From: Deltaproteobacteria bacterium
Lineage (GTDB): Bacteria > Desulfobacterota_D > UBA1144 > Nemesobacterales > UBA2774
Assembly: GCA_029262275.1 (NCBI GenBank)
Contig: JAJCZS010000007.1
Location: forward strand, 58,785-122,784
Direction of reading: 5' to 3'
DNA length: 64,000 bases
Shown here: positions 18,492 to 22,275 of the stretch, one piece after another
Layout of the letters: the number at the start of each line of letters is the position of its first letter
How positions within the stretch are numbered: position 1 is the stretch's first letter
Notes under the pieces: generated by a model
What the model was told of the DNA's origin: nothing
Seen by the model: the letters and a program-made list of their open reading frames with translations, nothing else
The model's database searches: none
Program-made: the position numbers and the translations under genes

Positions 18492-19124
18492 ATGAGAAAA
18501 GCCTTAATAATAAATATTATATTTTTGCTTCTAATGTTTTTCGCTATGGATTCGACGGCTCAAGATCCACCGGTTACCTGTCCTCAGAAATGCACTGAGA
18601 GCAAAACGAATTGCGAGTTGTCATGCTCACAGATTGTGGGTGGCGGGGCTAAGAGTAAAGAGAGAAGGGAATGTGTCAAAAATTGTGATGTAGGACTTGG
18701 AGAGTGTAATGGGAGATGTTTGGATCCTACTCCTCGTCCGACACTCAAGCCTGAGCGCTATCATGATAAATCATGTCCCAGATCTTGCGAGCTTAAAGCG
18801 TTTGACTGTAATGAGGTATGCACCAAATATATGGGTGGTGGAGCAAAGAGCGGGAAAAAGGCGGTTTGCAGAAAAGAGTGTAGTGAGGGTCTTGAGGATT
18901 GTAAGAACTGGTGCGTAAGTCCAACACCCAAGCCAACTTTGAAACCCGACCCTCTTGCTGATAAACCTTGCACTGAAGTATGCAAGTATAAAAAATTGTA
19001 TTGTGAGTCGAGTTGCAGTGTTTATATGGGCGGCGGAGCAAAAAGTGAGAAGAGAAGTAAGTGTATGTCGGAGTGTAGGGATTTTAATGATGAGTGCTTA
19101 GGTGAATGCAAGGAAAATAATTAA
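18492..19124 (+). CDS. secreted cysteine-rich tandem-repeat protein (210 aa; three ~65-aa repeats, each with four CX3C motifs)
   Basis: Signal peptide, then 2.8 copies of C-x3-C-x6-C-x3-C-…GGGAKS…C-x3-C-x6-C-x3-C-…PTP(K/R)PTLKP. The 24 Cys all sit in CX3C pairs. Confidence 0.5.
   Translation: MRKALIINIIFLLLMFFAMDSTAQDPPVTCPQKCTESKTNCELSCSQIVGGGAKSKERRECVKNCDVGLGECNGRCLDPTPRPTLKPERYHDKSCPRSCELKAFDCNEVCTKYMGGGAKSGKKAVCRKECSEGLEDCKNWCVSPTPKPTLKPDPLADKPCTEVCKYKKLYCESSCSVYMGGGAKSEKRSKCMSECRDFNDECLGECKENN
18576..19121 (+). repeat. intragenic tandem repeat, period 195 nt, ~2.8 copies (encodes the CX3C repeat units)
   Basis: Repeat units start at ~18576, 18771 and 18966. Divergent at DNA level but collinear, e.g. 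ggtggcggggctaagagtaaag / ggtggtggagcaaagagcggga / ggcggcggagcaaaaagtgaga. Confidence 0.6.
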
Positions 19125-19477
19125 ACTTTCAGACCACTTCTCATTTCTTCTATCTCCTTATTTAAGAAATAGGATAAGATGGTTCTTATTACAACAATAC
19201 CACCTAGAAAAATAAGGTCCTCTCTAGTTTGATTTATAACGGTTTTTATAATATCGGCAACTATCATAATTTCTAAACCAAGTAAGAGGTATGTCCCTAG
19301 ATAACATCTTATAGCTTTTATGTCATTTCCGCTTAGAGTTTGATTTTTTATTCTTAGCGCAATGAAGTCGTACATAGATTTTAGAAAGCCCCATAAAATA
19401 AATAATATAGCTACCAAGTCTATGATGTCTGTTATAGGGGTAAAGATAGTTACAAGATATTCTTCAAGGTGAAACAT
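19121..19477 (-). CDS. small integral membrane protein, DUF1622-like (118 aa)
   Basis: Three or four TM helices and no other motif. It is the last gene of the minus-strand operon headed by the Rieske-TPP gene. Confidence 0.4.
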   Translation of the reverse strand: MFHLEEYLVTIFTPITDIIDLVAILFILWGFLKSMYDFIALRIKNQTLSGNDIKAIRCYLGTYLLLGLEIMIVADIIKTVINQTREDLIFLGGIVVIRTILSYFLNKEIEEMRSGLKV

Positions 19478-19494
19478 TTTAGTCTCCTAAAATC

Positions 19495-20289
19495 TCACTT
19501 CATAAATTGACTAAAGGTGTTATCAAGATAGTCCATTAACAAACCACCAGGATTATCAGTTTTAATAAGGTCATTGTATTTTAATATAACTCCCTGCCAT
19601 CCTTCCGTGTGTAGGTATGCAGGCTCTAATAAATTAATATGACTGTAGTCTTCAAGTTCAGGATACACAGTAATATAAAAGTAGGGTTCTTCAATTCCAG
19701 AGTCGCCGGTTAAGTATCCAAAGGCGATCTGATCCATATTGTCTTTAGATGCCGGATAGCATGTAAATGCAACATCCATATGGTGAGACCAAAGCTGAAC
19801 AGGGCTTGTCTCTAAAGTAATTGAACCCTTAAATGTTTTGAATATGATATCAACTAACGAGTAGGATTTGAAAATTTTACTTGCAGTTGCTGGATCATAT
19901 TCGAGATCTGAGTTATCACTGAATTTCTCAAGATCTATATCGGGTTTGATGCCCATAGTTTCCAAAACCGATAGAACTTCACTTGTGAAATGTGATGCGG
20001 ATTGTCCTTTAATAGGGATGTTTCGGTTATGTCCCAAGCTTGATGATATCTCTACACGATGAGAAAGCAGGTTTATAGAAAGTTCAAAAGTACTTCCATC
20101 TTCGTTTGGTATCGGGGTTGTCCTAAACCCCTGGGTGCCGGTCCTAAGACTAATGTGCCAGTATTCTTTTTGCTCAGGAGTCATCTTAGCTCTGATTGCG
20201 CCTAATAATCTAGCATAAGAATGGATTGCATCACTTGTTTTCAGGATTTGCTCGTATTGCAAAATCGGGAATGTGTTTTTAGTTATCAT
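19495..20289 (-). CDS. hypothetical protein (264 aa), translationally coupled to the Rieske-TPP gene
   Basis: Start lies within a few nt of the upstream gene's stop. No recognised motif. Confidence 0.35.
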   Translation of the reverse strand: MITKNTFPILQYEQILKTSDAIHSYARLLGAIRAKMTPEQKEYWHISLRTGTQGFRTTPIPNEDGSTFELSINLLSHRVEISSSLGHNRNIPIKGQSASHFTSEVLSVLETMGIKPDIDLEKFSDNSDLEYDPATASKIFKSYSLVDIIFKTFKGSITLETSPVQLWSHHMDVAFTCYPASKDNMDQIAFGYLTGDSGIEEPYFYITVYPELEDYSHINLLEPAYLHTEGWQGVILKYNDLIKTDNPGGLLMDYLDNTFSQFMK

Positions 20290-20292
20290 TGC

Positions 20293-22275
20293 TTAGATTA
20301 GCTCCGCGTCGGCCATAACTTCGACCAGTGAAAATGTTTTATGTTTTAAGCACTTCTTTAGTGCACCTGCAAGTTCTTTTTTATTCGTTACTCTTATTCC
20401 AAGACCTCCGCATGAGTTCACAAAGTCGGCGAAATTAGGGTTATGAAGTGATGTCTGCCATACCTCCCAGTTTCCTGCCTTTTGTTCTTTGCTTATTTTC
20501 CCAAGCTCCTTGTTGTGAAGAAGGACATGCGTGATGTTCATACCGTATTTAACAGCAGTTGTAACGTCAGCCAAGTATTGACCAAAGCCGCCGTCTCCTG
20601 AGATCGAGACTACTTTTCGTCCTTTAAACTTAGGATCATCTTCCTGAGTTGCAGACCATGCTCCAAGCCCAGCAGGTAGAGAGAATCCTATCGATCCAAG
20701 ATAACCTGACATCAGAAGTGCTTGGTTTCTACATTCAAAATATCTTCCAAAGGAATAAGTATTGTTTCCTACATCGACTGAGATGATTGCATTTTCAGGT
20801 ACCAGCTTTGAAAGCTCTTCGAATATGTATGCTGAGTTCAGTCCTAAACCCCGGTCGTCCTTTCTTCTACTCTTTTTCTCTTCTCTCCATATAGCCCACC
20901 GCTTTGCTATCTCTTTTCTTCTGTCTTTGGATTTTGCTTTGCCTTTTACACCTTTTTTGATAAGCTCAGCCGTAATTCCAATCTCTCCCCATACTGGGAC
21001 TGTTACAGAGTGAAATTTAGCAAGCGCCATGTTGTCATAGTCCACATGGATAATAGGTTTTTTAGAGGATATTCCAGTATGGTTGCTAAAGCTCGCACCA
21101 AATACCAAAAGTAGATCCGACTCGTTCATAAACCAGCTTGCTATTGGGGTTCCGCTTCGGCCTAATACACCACAGCCAAGAGGGTGATCATCTGAGATGA
21201 GCCCTTTACCCTTAAATGTTGTAAAAACAGGGCATTTTAGCATCTTGGCTAACTCAGTAATTGAATCCATATTAAAACGTGCCCCGTGGCCCACAATAAT
21301 TGATGGTCTCTCCGCATTCTTTAAGAGTTTAATTGCCTGATCTAAAGTCTCCTTGGGCGGGCTTATAGTAAGAGGTGTCATTCTACCCTCAGGGCTTCCA
21401 GCTTTAGCTTTCTCAGGGGCAGGTAGTGTTTGAACTTCGTCTGGGAATACAAGATGCGATACACCACGGTTTAAGATTGCACTTTTTAATGCAAGATTAA
21501 TAAGCTCTGCATGTTTGCTTGATGGGAGCACAGTTTGAGACCACTGAGCTACTTGTCCAAATGCTGCTTGGAGGTCCACCTCTTGAAATGCTCCTGGGCC
21601 TAGCACCTGAGTATCTACCTGACCGCTCAGCGCAAGCACGGGGCTTCTATCCACATTTGCATCCCAAAGTCCTGTGAGCAGATTTGTGGAGCCGGGGCCT
21701 GCAATCCCAAGACAAGCTGCGGGTCTTCCCGTAAGTTTTCCGTAAGCTGAGCACGCAAACGCAGCGGCTCCTTCATGACGTATTCCGTAATATGATAGAT
21801 TCCCCGCTTCTTCCTGAATCCTAAGTGCATCAGCAAGACCCAAATTAGAATGCCCAACCATGCCAAATATTTGTTTGACTCCCCAATTGACCATGGTCTC
21901 GGCCATAATATCTGTAACAGTCTGTTTATGTTCACCTTCATCCTCAAGAGCTACATAAACTCCGTCATCCCTCTCTTCGATCTCATAAGTGGGTACCCCA
22001 TCATCAAACCCACCAGGTGAATCTCCTGTTATGGGGTTAAAGTCCCACCCATGCCATGGACATCTGAGCATGCCGTTCTCTATAGAGCCTTCACCCAAGG
22101 GGCCGCCCTGATGAGGACATTTATTGTTTAATGCTCCATATTCGCCTTTGAAACGGCTTAGGCATATTGTTAGGTTTCTGCATGTTCTGGTTGTAACTCT
22201 TCCCTCTGGAAGCTCGCCGTGTTCTAGAACTTTGTACCAGGATTTATGTGTTTTTCTTTTTGGTGTTGTGGCCAT
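20293..22275 (-). CDS. fusion protein: N-terminal Rieske [2Fe-2S] domain + thiamine-pyrophosphate enzyme (acetolactate synthase / pyruvate oxidase-like), 660 aa
   Basis: Rieske box CPHQGGPLGEGSIENGMLRCPWHGW (CxH-x16-CxxH). All three TPP-enzyme domains follow. The N-domain is …GMVGHSNLGLADALRIQ…GAAAFACSAYGKLTGRPAACLGIAGPGSTNLLTGL…. The middle domain is …PSIIVGHGARF…. The C-domain carries the GDG…N TPP/Mg motif (ISGDGGFGQYLADVTTAVKYGMNITHVLLHNKELG). Confidence 0.7.
   Translation of the reverse strand: MATTPKRKTHKSWYKVLEHGELPEGRVTTRTCRNLTICLSRFKGEYGALNNKCPHQGGPLGEGSIENGMLRCPWHGWDFNPITGDSPGGFDDGVPTYEIEERDDGVYVALEDEGEHKQTVTDIMAETMVNWGVKQIFGMVGHSNLGLADALRIQEEAGNLSYYGIRHEGAAAFACSAYGKLTGRPAACLGIAGPGSTNLLTGLWDANVDRSPVLALSGQVDTQVLGPGAFQEVDLQAAFGQVAQWSQTVLPSSKHAELINLALKSAILNRGVSHLVFPDEVQTLPAPEKAKAGSPEGRMTPLTISPPKETLDQAIKLLKNAERPSIIVGHGARFNMDSITELAKMLKCPVFTTFKGKGLISDDHPLGCGVLGRSGTPIASWFMNESDLLLVFGASFSNHTGISSKKPIIHVDYDNMALAKFHSVTVPVWGEIGITAELIKKGVKGKAKSKDRRKEIAKRWAIWREEKKSRRKDDRGLGLNSAYIFEELSKLVPENAIISVDVGNNTYSFGRYFECRNQALLMSGYLGSIGFSLPAGLGAWSATQEDDPKFKGRKVVSISGDGGFGQYLADVTTAVKYGMNITHVLLHNKELGKISKEQKAGNWEVWQTSLHNPNFADFVNSCGGLGIRVTNKKELAGALKKCLKHKTFSLVEVMADAELI

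What the first reader, a model, noticed from the sequence alone, without database searches (positions are those of the whole stretch)
19121..22275. Operon led by a Rieske [2Fe-2S]-TPP enzyme fusion, with a 264-aa unknown and a small membrane protein
The 660-aa protein joins a canonical Rieske box (CPH-x16-CPWH) to a complete three-domain thiamine-pyrophosphate enzyme of the acetolactate-synthase/pyruvate-oxidase type. Its GDG…N TPP/Mg motif is intact. In POX/ALS the redox partner is FAD in the middle domain. An in-cis Rieske cluster suggests a TPP-dependent oxidative decarboxylase that hands electrons to an Fe-S centre, which is not a textbook architecture. The next gene (264 aa, no recognisable family) starts within a few nt of its stop, which indicates translational coupling. 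A DUF1622-like membrane protein ends the operon and could be a membrane electron acceptor or anchor. An AlsD-like acetolactate decarboxylase lies 3 kb away, so acetolactate/acetoin-type chemistry is a possible context.
Basis: partly seen in the sequence, partly recalled or inferred. Interest (0 to 1): 0.75.

Follow-up and report, generated by a model that had tools for sequence, protein, structure and literature searches.

The report
Rieske-fused pyruvate-oxidase-like enzyme with DUF5996 partner
A real, widespread and so far uncharacterised bacterial enzyme joins an iron-sulfur "electron-shuttle" domain to a vitamin-B1/flavin enzyme of the pyruvate-oxidase type, travels with a conserved unknown partner protein (DUF5996), and probably feeds electrons from a 2-oxo acid into an iron-sulfur carrier in oxygen-living bacteria.

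Summary
On the minus strand, 20293-22275 encodes a 660-aa Rieske + TPP_N/M/C protein. It is followed 3 nt later by a 264-aa protein and then by DUF1622. The "unknown" 264-aa protein is in fact Pfam DUF5996.

The fusion is neither an artefact nor rare. At least 594 species-level genomes in more than 12 phyla carry it at about 63-72% identity. All four Rieske ligands, the catalytic Glu and the GDG...N motif are conserved in 84 of 84 sequences.

The TPP core is closest to E. coli PoxB and Corynebacterium PQO, but it lacks their membrane-binding tail. The Rieske domain is the low-potential ferredoxin type.

New here: DUF5996 is the cognate partner. It is adjacent in about 46% of complete loci and fused in frame in one. 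A second fusion, Rieske-FMN-[3Fe-4S] (glutamate-synthase-like), shares the operon in about 42% of loci but is absent from this window. DUF1622 is a rare accessory, and the AlsD link is only lineage synteny.

Most likely mechanism: 2-oxo acid to TPP to FAD to Rieske to a protein partner. The substrate and the acceptor are unknown. I found no literature on it. It is a new variant of a known kind, of moderate-to-high interest.

The parts
22276..22444 (-). 169-nt AT-rich intergenic region upstream of the fusion gene. It is the likely promoter and RBS region, with GGGGG 8 nt before the ATG.
   Evidence: Sequence read. The consensus scan found no promoter inside this gap. No Rfam element, including a TPP riboswitch, was found. 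The promoter role is inferred, not shown.
20293..22275 (-). 660-aa Rieske [2Fe-2S] / TPP / (FAD) fusion enzyme, PoxB/PQO-like core
   Evidence: ORF. Pfam four-domain architecture. Best NCBIfam matches are pyruvate oxidase and PoxB, but far below their cut-offs. Best PDB matches are PoxB 3EYA (E 3e-68; Foldseek TM 0.84) and C. glutamicum PQO 9EV3-6 (TM 0.83). AF2 model pLDDT 81, pTM 0.80.
21946..22242 (-). Rieske ferredoxin-type domain (residues 12-110). The cluster ligands C53, H55, C72 and H75 are encoded at 22051-22119.
   Evidence: PF00355 match. Ligands conserved in 84 of 84 sequences. The closest solved relatives are Rieske ferredoxins of multicomponent oxygenases, T4moC, CarAc, NDO-Fd and TodB, while arsenite oxidase AioB is only marginal. 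There is no disulfide-type CxHxGC/CxCHGS box.
21565..21921 (-). TPP_enzyme_N (Pyr) domain with catalytic Glu168 (RHE168GA)
   Evidence: E168 is conserved in 84 of 84 sequences and aligns with PoxB E50.
20968..21345 (-). TPP_enzyme_M middle domain, the presumed FAD-binding domain
   Evidence: G329, G331, T352, K355, G369, G372, G375, G393, F396 and D412 are each conserved in 84 of 84 sequences. They align with the PoxB segments GSG, 251-254, 274-278 and D292. Searched alone, this domain matches FAD-binding AHAS, POX, CDH and Gcl better than PDC or BAL. Cofactor binding itself was not tested.
20317..20775 (-). TPP_enzyme_C (PP) domain. GDG...N (residues 560-588) is encoded at 20512-20598. K593 is invariant where PoxB has F465. 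The protein ends where the PoxB membrane-binding tail would begin.
19495..20289 (-). 264-aa DUF5996 protein, the conserved partner of the fusion enzyme. Its start lies 3 nt after the fusion stop.
   Evidence: PF19459, E 8e-42. It lies on the same strand within 2.5 kb in 31-34 of 83 loci and in 23 of 50 loci with complete flanks. It is fused in frame in L065. Homologues down to 33% identity are still adjacent to a Rieske-TPP gene. AF2 pLDDT 92. There is no solved relative.
19121..19477 (-). 118-aa DUF1622 small membrane protein with three hydrophobic segments, a clade-specific accessory gene of the operon
   Evidence: PF07784, E 1e-24. It starts 17 nt after the DUF5996 stop, with an AGGAG in between. 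It is present in the 92% relative L091. It is absent in the 84-85% relatives L081, L086 and L087. Outside Dadabacteria it appears only in L010. It has one His and one Cys.

Best explanation
The 660-aa gene encodes a soluble cytoplasmic enzyme of the PoxB/PQO (pyruvate:quinone oxidoreductase) type. It uses thiamine diphosphate and most probably FAD. The C-terminal membrane/quinone-targeting tail of PoxB is absent, and a low-potential, ferredoxin-type Rieske [2Fe-2S] domain is fused to the N-terminus.

Proposed mechanism. A 2-oxo acid is decarboxylated on TPP. The substrate could be pyruvate, or another acid, possibly one with a second anionic group given the invariant Lys593 where PoxB has Phe465. 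The enamine intermediate is oxidised by the flavin in the middle domain. The two electrons then leave one at a time through the Rieske cluster to a protein partner rather than to membrane quinone.

Partners. DUF5996 is translationally coupled here and fused to the enzyme in one genome, so it is the cognate partner, either as acceptor, adaptor or maturation factor. In about 40% of other genomes a second Rieske flavoenzyme (Rieske-FMN-[3Fe-4S], glutamate-synthase-like) sits in the same operon, and sometimes a Na+/H+-exchanger-family protein does too. This Dadabacteria window carries a reduced version: Rieske-TPP, DUF5996 and the clade-specific DUF1622.

Shown: the architecture, the motif and ligand conservation, the missing tail, the Rieske type and the gene linkage. 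Inferred: FAD occupancy, oxidative chemistry, the direction of electron flow, the substrate and the partner roles.
For: Domain order and motifs. Breadth: the 120 best hits all carry the four domains, and at least 594 genome loci match, with 80 of 80 full-length at 63-72% identity across more than 12 phyla. Conservation: C53, H55, C72, H75, E168, G560, D561 and G563 are each present in 84 of 84 sequences, and N588 in 83 of 84. The Rieske domain is as conserved as the catalytic domains, while the linkers drift. Nearest relatives are FAD-dependent oxidative decarboxylases: NCBIfam pyruvate oxidase 375 bits and PoxB 297 bits, PDB PoxB E 3e-68, Foldseek PoxB TM 0.84 and PQO TM 0.83. The middle-domain Gly-rich and Asp motifs that align with PoxB FAD segments are invariant, and the middle domain alone prefers FAD-binding relatives. 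The roughly 42-residue PoxB membrane tail is absent in every member. The Rieske domain is closest to the electron-shuttling ferredoxins T4moC and CarAc. There are no hydrophobic segments, so the protein is probably cytoplasmic. DUF5996 linkage. In-frame DUF5996-Rieske-TPP fusion in L065. Rieske-GltS partner in 38 of 83 loci, with a C-x5-C-x4-C [3Fe-4S] motif.
Against: No cofactor or activity was or can be measured here. The scores are far below every NCBIfam equivalog cut-off (375 against 742, 297 against 792), so this is not an orthologue of PoxB or POX. ALS, Gcl and CDH relatives also keep FAD without using it for redox, so retained FAD motifs do not prove oxidative chemistry. The residue thought to gate TPP-to-FAD electron transfer in PoxB (F465) is a Lys here. 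No downstream acceptor has been identified. In 22 of 50 complete loci neither partner lies nearby. The window itself lacks the GltS-like partner. The Rieske-to-flavin distance could not be measured because model coordinates are not exposed.
Confidence: 0.55

Rival explanations
1. Reductase-ferredoxin unit for DUF5996. The TPP/FAD part replaces the NADH-dependent reductase of a three-component system, the Rieske domain acts as the ferredoxin, and DUF5996 is the terminal enzyme, a reductase or oxygenase acting on an unknown small molecule. Catalysis would therefore be powered by 2-oxo-acid decarboxylation. This is a specific version of the best explanation that names the acceptor.
Confidence: 0.2
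2. Two-enzyme redox couple with the Rieske-FMN-[3Fe-4S] glutamate-synthase-like protein. One version is sequential catabolism: amino acid to 2-oxo acid by the GltS-like enzyme, then to the shorter acid plus CO2 by the TPP enzyme, with both enzymes exporting electrons through their Rieske domains. The other version is 2-oxo-acid-driven reductive amination, with electrons passing from Rieske to Rieske. In this reading the Dadabacteria operon is a remnant, or the partner is encoded elsewhere.
For: The Rieske-GltS gene lies next to the Rieske-TPP gene in 38 of 83 loci, mostly on the same strand, often with DUF5996 between them. It keeps the GltB FMN-domain match and the [3Fe-4S] cysteine motif. 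Both families are unusually conserved at 70-78% identity across phyla.
Against: The gene is absent from the 64-kb window and from the Dadabacteria syntenic loci. 29 of 50 complete loci lack it nearby. No substrate evidence exists, and thermodynamics allows either direction of electron flow.
Confidence: 0.2
3. Non-oxidative TPP enzyme, a carboligase or lyase like ALS, Gcl, Xsc or CDH, in which FAD is vestigial. The Rieske domain would then be a redox or O2 sensor, or a structural or regulatory module, rather than an electron exit.
For: ALS-type families also score well (about 270 bits). Plant AHAS is the best match for the middle domain alone. The PoxB gating Phe is replaced by Lys. Vestigial FAD is well known in this superfamily (established knowledge).
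Against: The best full-length matches by sequence and by structure are the oxidative PoxB, PQO and POX enzymes. The Rieske ligands are invariant and the domain is ferredoxin-like. The same kind of Rieske domain is fused to a second redox flavoenzyme in the same operon, which fits electron transfer better than sensing.
Confidence: 0.15
4. One reading: an acetolactate/acetoin-type pathway linked to AlsD, with DUF1622 as the membrane electron acceptor.
For: AlsD lies 3.2 kb upstream on the same strand, and this synteny is kept in Dadabacteria. DUF1622 recurs inside the module in a second phylum (L010).
Against: AlsD is absent from 80 of 80 non-Dadabacteria loci. Four unrelated genes and intergenic gaps separate it from the operon. 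AlsD and the neighbouring cyclase have signal-like N-termini, and the fusion has none. DUF1622 has no plausible cofactor ligands and is missing in close relatives.
Confidence: 0.03
5. Artefact: a frameshift or misassembly has merged a separate Rieske gene with a TPP-enzyme gene.
For: One locus (L029) has an in-frame TGA exactly in the linker, so a split form may exist.
Against: The same continuous ORF occurs in the 120 best clusters and in 80 genome loci from independent assemblies.
Confidence: 0.01

Closest known systems
E. coli pyruvate oxidase PoxB (pyruvate:ubiquinone oxidoreductase; PDB 3EY9/3EYA)
   Same: It has the same three-domain Pyr/FAD/PP fold (Foldseek TM 0.84) and 31% identity over residues 117-654. 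The catalytic Glu, the FQE motif, GDG...N and the Gly/Asp segments of the FAD domain are conserved.
   Different: PoxB has no N-terminal Rieske domain. The family here lacks PoxB's roughly 42-residue C-terminal membrane-binding and lipid-activation tail, and PoxB F465 corresponds to an invariant Lys. The score is far below the equivalog cut-off (297 against 792). The acceptor is presumably a protein rather than membrane quinone.
Corynebacterium glutamicum pyruvate:quinone oxidoreductase PQO (PDB 9EV3-9EV6)
   Same: It is the second-best structural match (TM 0.83) and is a TPP + FAD enzyme.
   Different: It shares only 23-24% identity, has no Rieske domain, and targets quinone at the membrane.
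Lactobacillus plantarum / Aerococcus pyruvate oxidase (POX, EC 1.2.3.3)
   Same: The best NCBIfam model hit is pyruvate oxidase PRK08611 (375 bits). The PDB entry 1POX matches with E about 1e-52.
   Different: POX passes electrons to O2 and makes acetyl phosphate. The score here is half the family cut-off, and the C-terminal part of the POX profile (positions 532-576) is not matched.
Rieske-type ferredoxins of multicomponent oxygenases (T4moC, CarAc, BphF, TodB)
   Same: The CxH-x16-CxxH box matches, the fold is the same and they are the best PDB sequence matches. They are the low-potential shuttle type without the bc1-type disulfide.
   Different: Here the domain is fused to its presumed electron donor, which is a TPP/flavin enzyme rather than an NADH-dependent reductase. 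No Rieske oxygenase is encoded nearby.
Pyruvate:ferredoxin oxidoreductase (PFOR/OFOR)
   Same: The resemblance is functional only: a TPP-dependent 2-oxo-acid oxidation that delivers electrons to Fe-S centres.
   Different: The architecture is unrelated. PFOR uses [4Fe-4S] clusters, needs CoA and is oxygen-sensitive. The family here is ALS/POX-fold with flavin and a Rieske cluster, and occurs in aerobes.
Glutamate synthase large-subunit FMN/[3Fe-4S] domain (for the partner found in other genomes)
   Same: The partner matches PF01645 and PRK11750 positions 865-1165, and it keeps the C-x5-C-x4-C motif.
   Different: The partner lacks the amidotransferase and GXGXG domains, has an N-terminal Rieske domain, and is not present in this window.

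Membership tests
PoxB/PQO/POX-type TPP+FAD pyruvate oxidoreductases | Three-domain Pyr / middle / PP architecture with catalytic Glu and GDG-x(24-27)-N Mg-TPP motif | tested here: met
   Pfam TPP_N/M/C. E168, G560-D-G-G and N588 are conserved in 83-84 of 84 sequences. 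Foldseek TM 0.83-0.84 to PoxB and PQO.
PoxB/PQO/POX-type TPP+FAD pyruvate oxidoreductases | FAD bound in the middle domain and used for redox | tested here: inconclusive
   The motifs aligned to PoxB GSG, 251-254, 274-278 and D292 are invariant. The middle domain prefers FAD-binding relatives. Cofactor occupancy and redox use cannot be tested in silico here, and the PoxB residue numbers were recalled from memory.
PoxB/PQO/POX-type TPP+FAD pyruvate oxidoreductases | Score above the curated equivalog cut-off (NCBIfam PRK08611, PRK09124, TIGR02720) | tested here: not met
   375 against 742, 297 against 792 and 270 against 638 bits.
PoxB/PQO/POX-type TPP+FAD pyruvate oxidoreductases | C-terminal amphipathic membrane-binding / lipid-activation domain (PoxB residues about 531-572) | tested here: not met
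   The family ends at the position aligned to PoxB residue about 530, and all members lack the tail.
PoxB/PQO/POX-type TPP+FAD pyruvate oxidoreductases | Pyruvate to acetate or acetyl phosphate plus CO2, with electron release | not testable with these tools
   This needs an enzyme assay.
Rieske [2Fe-2S] ferredoxin-type domain | CxH-x(15-17)-CxxH ligand boxes and PF00355 above the gathering score | tested here: met
   C53-P-H55, 16 residues, C72-P-W-H75. PF00355 scores 59.1 against 20.3 bits. The ligands are present in 84 of 84 sequences.
Rieske [2Fe-2S] ferredoxin-type domain | Low-potential class (no CxHxGC/CxCHGS disulfide boxes; similarity to oxygenase ferredoxins) | tested here: met
   The best PDB matches are T4moC, CarAc, NDO-Fd and TodB, while AioB is only E 4e-3. 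The boxes read CPHQGG and CPWHGW. The actual potential was not measured.
Rieske [2Fe-2S] ferredoxin-type domain | Cluster actually assembled and redox-active | not testable with these tools
   This needs EPR or UV-vis spectroscopy.
Acetolactate synthase (biosynthetic or catabolic) | Score above the ALS equivalog cut-offs, with ALS small subunit or alsS-alsD operon context | tested here: not met
   273 against 509, 268 against 538 and 227 against 510 bits. No small-subunit gene lies in the neighbourhood. AlsD is not in the operon and not co-conserved.
DUF5996 (PF19459) | Pfam model above the gathering score | tested here: met
   143.8 against 25 bits, two stretches. The protein is shorter (264 aa) than the canonical 290-320 aa, and belongs to a subfamily specifically linked to Rieske-TPP genes.
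DUF1622 (PF07784) | Pfam model above the gathering score; small multi-pass membrane protein | tested here: met
   86.4 against 24 bits. Three hydrophobic segments.

The most novel reading that the evidence does not exclude
The Rieske-TPP/FAD protein would be the core of a previously unrecognised, widely distributed, oxygen-tolerant redox module. That module would comprise Rieske-TPP/FAD, DUF5996, often Rieske-FMN-[3Fe-4S], and sometimes a membrane protein. It would use 2-oxo-acid decarboxylation, instead of NAD(P)H, to charge a low-potential Rieske ferredoxin domain. This would make it an aerobic counterpart of PFOR. The Rieske domain would then drive a new terminal enzyme (DUF5996) and/or a glutamate-synthase-like flavoenzyme.
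Probability: 0.25. Interest if true: 0.85.

Novelty: new variant of a known kind. Interest (0 to 1): 0.62.

Why it matters
TPP/flavin pyruvate oxidases are known to pass electrons only to O2 or to membrane quinone. The known route from 2-oxo acids to Fe-S carriers, PFOR/OFOR, is oxygen-sensitive. A soluble PoxB-like enzyme with a built-in Rieske ferredoxin would be a third, oxygen-compatible way to extract low-potential electrons from central 2-oxo acids.

The family is present in hundreds of species, including nitrite oxidisers, sulfur-oxidising symbionts, sponge symbionts and a cyanobacterium. It is conserved at about 70% identity and travels with two other uncharacterised conserved proteins. 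One set of experiments could therefore assign function to three orphan families: Rieske-TPP, the short DUF5996 subfamily and Rieske-GltS-like. It could also reveal an overlooked piece of aerobic marine metabolism.

If the enzyme instead turns out to be a carboligase with a sensor domain, the interest is more modest.

Tried and rejected
1. First iterative HMM for DUF5996. It was contaminated by the L065 triple fusion and pulled in every fusion ORF. I discarded it and redid it with the fusion ORFs masked.
2. De novo clustering of all neighbour ORFs. Apart from shadow ORFs in high-GC genomes, only DUF5996, Rieske-GltS and a Na/H exchanger recur. Smaller clusters seen in 8 or fewer loci (an M48-like peptidase, a large protein that looks Mo-oxidoreductase-like, an EgtB-like protein, an acyltransferase, an aminotransferase; labelled by eye from the sequences, not scanned) were treated as lineage synteny.
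3. TPP riboswitch or any other RNA element: Rfam found nothing in the whole window.
5. A 2-His-1-carboxylate iron site in DUF5996: rejected, because H170 is not conserved across 202 sequences.
6. Recent horizontal transfer suggested by the higher GC of the gene: rejected, because GC3 (0.368) equals that of the neighbours.
7. Measuring the Rieske-to-flavin geometry: model coordinates are not exposed to the sandbox.
8. Literature. Ten searches found no paper on the fusion, on DUF5996 or on the Rieske-GltS protein. The PoxB structure paper is not held.
9. Searching for Rieske-GltS in the window: none found. The rest of the 468-kb source contig could not be scanned.
10. The AlsD link and the idea of DUF1622 as an electron acceptor: rejected as described above.

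Full report
OBSERVATION. For the 660-aa protein, Pfam gives Rieske at residues 12-85 (E 4e-16). It also gives TPP_enzyme_N at 119-237, TPP_enzyme_M at 311-436 and TPP_enzyme_C at 501-653, each around E 1e-30. The ligand box is C53-P-H55, 16 residues, then C72-P-W-H75, and the Mg-TPP motif G560-D-G-G...N588 is intact.

The junctions are tight. TAA-gca-ATG separates the fusion from the second gene, and 17 nt containing AGGAG precede the third gene. A 169-nt AT-rich gap lies upstream. The 118-aa protein is DUF1622, and AlsD at 25502-26296 is genuine. The one factual correction is that the 264-aa protein does belong to a recognised family, Pfam DUF5996 (E 8e-42), although its function is unknown.

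IS THE FUSION REAL AND HOW COMMON IS IT. All 120 best database clusters carry the same four domains at 69-94% identity. The closest are Candidatus Dadabacteria MAGs at 91-94%. Their names are only generic, such as "thiamine pyrophosphate-binding protein" or "Rieske 2Fe-2S domain-containing protein".

A scan of one genome per species found at least 594 loci. The best 80 are full-length at 63-72% identity. They span Acidobacteriota, Gemmatimonadota, Myxococcota, Poribacteria, Nitrospirales, Nitrospinaceae, Gammaproteobacteria (Thiodiazotropha, Woeseia, Parabeggiatoa), Trueperaceae, Rhodothermales, Calditrichia, Phycisphaerae, Spirochaetales, Flavobacteriales, Omnitrophota, Thalassobaculaceae and a Leptolyngbya.

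In 84 aligned sequences the four Rieske ligands, Glu168, G560, D561 and G563 are each present in 84 of 84, and N588 in 83 of 84. The Rieske domain has 70% mean pairwise identity, the same as the catalytic domains (68-76%), while the two linkers drift to 34% and 48%. A frameshift artefact is therefore excluded, and the Rieske domain is under the same constraint as the enzyme core. GC3 of the gene (0.368) matches its neighbours, so nothing points to recent transfer.

WHAT THE CORE RESEMBLES. The best NCBIfam models are pyruvate oxidase (375 bits) and ubiquinone-dependent pyruvate dehydrogenase PoxB (297 bits). Both are far below their equivalog cut-offs of 742 and 792, and ALS models score lower still. 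The best solved relatives are E. coli PoxB by sequence (E 3e-68) and by Foldseek on the AF2 model (pLDDT 81, pTM 0.80). Foldseek gives TM 0.84 for PoxB, then Corynebacterium glutamicum pyruvate:quinone oxidoreductase at TM 0.83, then POX and AHAS.

Aligned to PoxB (31% identity), the family keeps the Gly-rich and Asp segments that correspond to PoxB GSG, 251-254, 274-278 and D292. The residue numbers are recalled from UniProt P07003. The recalled E50, D433, N460 and F465 all land on the expected residues. These positions are invariant in 84 of 84 sequences. The middle domain alone matches FAD-binding AHAS, POX, CDH and Gcl better than PDC or BAL. FAD binding is therefore likely, but it is inferred.

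There are two clear differences from PoxB. First, the roughly 42-residue C-terminal membrane-binding tail of PoxB is absent from every member. Second, the Phe that gates electron transfer in PoxB (F465) is an invariant Lys (K593).

The Rieske domain on its own is most similar to the soluble Rieske ferredoxins of multicomponent oxygenases (T4moC, CarAc, NDO-Fd, TodB). Arsenite oxidase AioB is only marginal. The boxes CPHQGG and CPWHGW lack the bc1-type disulfide cysteines, so this is the low-potential shuttle class. Neither the fusion nor DUF5996 has a hydrophobic segment, so both are probably cytoplasmic.

NEIGHBOURHOOD. I compared the 80 genome loci plus loci fetched by exact protein look-up. 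DUF5996 lies on the same strand within 2.5 kb in 31-34 of 83 loci. Its order varies between directly upstream and directly downstream, and it often abuts or overlaps the fusion gene. Among the 50 loci with at least 4.5 kb on both sides it is present in 23.

In L065 (Nannocystales) it is fused in frame as a 938-aa DUF5996-Rieske-TPP ORF. Every DUF5996 homologue returned by the homologue search whose context I looked up (33-51% identity) sits beside a Rieske-TPP gene. A canonical 321-aa DUF5996 does not. The link is therefore specific to the short subfamily, which belongs to a larger family of 5,859 representatives at E <= 1e-3.

Unexpectedly, a second Rieske fusion is encoded beside the Rieske-TPP gene in 38 of 83 loci (21 of 50 complete loci, with both partners present in 16). 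It is about 540 aa, combines Rieske with the glutamate-synthase FMN domain PF01645, and retains the C-x5-C-x4-C [3Fe-4S] motif. The typical gene order is Rieske-GltS, DUF5996, Rieske-TPP. This protein is equally widespread, is conserved at 73-78% identity, and is named only "glutamate synthase-related protein". A short Na_H_Exchanger protein joins the operon in 8 of 50 complete loci.

The window itself has no Rieske-GltS gene, and neither do the Dadabacteria syntenic loci.

DUF1622 is present in a 92%-identical relative (L091). It is absent at 84-85% identity (L081, L086, L087). Elsewhere it is seen only in L010 (Nitrospirales), inside the module and carrying an in-frame stop. It is a rare accessory that was recruited twice. 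It has one His and one Cys, which makes it an implausible redox carrier.

AlsD, the cyclase, DUF6573, the NifS-like gene and the NTPase_1 gene are syntenic only within Dadabacteria (0-1 of 80 elsewhere). AlsD and the cyclase also have signal-like N-termini.

MECHANISM. The best-supported reading, at confidence about 0.55, is a soluble PoxB/PQO-like oxidative decarboxylase. The electron path would run from TPP to FAD to the in-cis Rieske cluster and then to a protein partner, which replaces the membrane/quinone exit of PoxB. The architecture, the conservation, the missing tail, the Rieske type and the gene linkage are shown. FAD occupancy, oxidative chemistry, the substrate and the acceptor are inferred. 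The invariant Lys593 at the PoxB F465 position may point to a substrate with a second anionic group, but that is speculation.

Rivals:
- DUF5996 is the terminal enzyme of a 2-oxo-acid-powered three-part system (confidence 0.2; a sub-case of the main reading).
- The enzyme forms a redox couple with the GltS-like flavoenzyme (0.2; it overlaps with the main reading, but the partner is absent here).
- It is a non-oxidative carboligase with a sensor-like Rieske domain (0.15).
- An assembly or frameshift artefact (0.01).

COMPARISON AND NOVELTY. The enzyme works like PoxB/PQO in its core, but it is not a member of those equivalogs. The score cut-offs are not met, the membrane tail is absent and the gating residue differs. 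The Rieske part meets the defining features of low-potential Rieske ferredoxins, except that it is fused. Functionally the closest analogy is PFOR, in which TPP delivers electrons to Fe-S centres, although that enzyme has an unrelated, oxygen-sensitive architecture.

Ten literature searches found no description of the fusion, of DUF5996 or of the Rieske-GltS protein. Only open-access papers and bioRxiv were searchable, so a description elsewhere cannot be excluded. I rate it a new variant of a known kind. The three- or four-gene module as a whole could be more than that.

LIMITS. No cofactor, activity or potential can be measured here. Only the best 80 of at least 594 loci were inspected. Partners encoded elsewhere in a genome would be missed. 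The PoxB functional residue numbers come from memory.

Noticed in passing
L082 6341-7954; L083 5439-7082; L085 5421-7004; L010 2630-4270 (not in the window): A second, equally conserved orphan fusion combines Rieske with the glutamate-synthase FMN domain (PF01645) and a C-x5-C-x4-C [3Fe-4S] motif. It is about 540 aa and lies in the same operon as the Rieske-TPP gene in 38 of 83 loci. It is named only 'glutamate synthase-related protein'.
   Followed up: partly
L065 5164-7980: A single 938-aa ORF encodes DUF5996-Rieske-TPP in a Nannocystales MAG. It is a Rosetta-stone fusion of the two window genes.
   Followed up: yes
L029 6307-6309; L048 (residue ~161 of the homologue): L029 has an in-frame TGA exactly in the linker between the Rieske and TPP_N domains, which is either a natural split or a long-read error. 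L048 has another internal stop.
   Followed up: partly
window 20497-20499 (K593 of the 660-aa protein): The position aligned with PoxB F465, the electron-transfer gate, is Lys in 84 of 84 family members.
   Followed up: partly
window 22162-22182 (C32 and C38 of the Rieske domain): Two extra cysteines co-vary across homologues: Cys/Cys in 63 sequences and Ala/Ala in 12 of 84. They may form a disulfide or a packed pair.
   Followed up: partly
window 18492-19124 (+): A 210-aa secreted-looking Cys-rich protein has three repeats of about 62 aa, each containing a GGGAKS motif, and no Pfam match. It converges on the operon end with a 4-nt overlap. An unannotated 204-230-aa gene on the opposite strand occupies the same position in the Dadabacteria relatives L081, L086 and L091; its homology to this protein was not checked.
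   Followed up: no
window 25502-26296 and 24678-25493: AlsD and the adjacent cyclase-family protein both start with a hydrophobic signal-like segment, which suggests they are exported. AlsD uses a TTG start and overlaps the peptide deformylase gene by 17 nt.
   Followed up: partly
L010 4285-4650: A DUF1622 gene sits between Rieske-GltS and DUF5996 in a Nitrospirales genome, with an in-frame stop at the conserved Trp codon. This is a second, independent recruitment of this rare family into the module.
   Followed up: yes
window 13784-16282 (+): A KefF-like flavodoxin_2 gene and a KefB-like Na_H_Exchanger/TrkA_N gene lie about 3 kb from the operon. A different, shorter Na_H_Exchanger is in-operon with the module in 8 of 50 other genomes. 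This is probably coincidence, but it was not resolved.
   Followed up: no
window 1-64000: No Rfam family reaches its gathering score anywhere in the 64 kb. That means no tRNA, riboswitch or other known RNA was detected.
   Followed up: no
L089 5702-6966: A canonical-length DUF5996 (321 aa) sits directly after a 93-aa zf-UBP protein and not near any Rieske-TPP gene. The wider DUF5996 family therefore has other contexts.
   Followed up: no
window 22445-24205 (-): An NTPase_1 (THEP1-like) gene and a NifS-like class-V aminotransferase gene lie directly upstream of the operon. They are syntenic in all Dadabacteria relatives but in none of the 80 other loci. A link to Fe-S maturation is possible but untested.
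   Followed up: no
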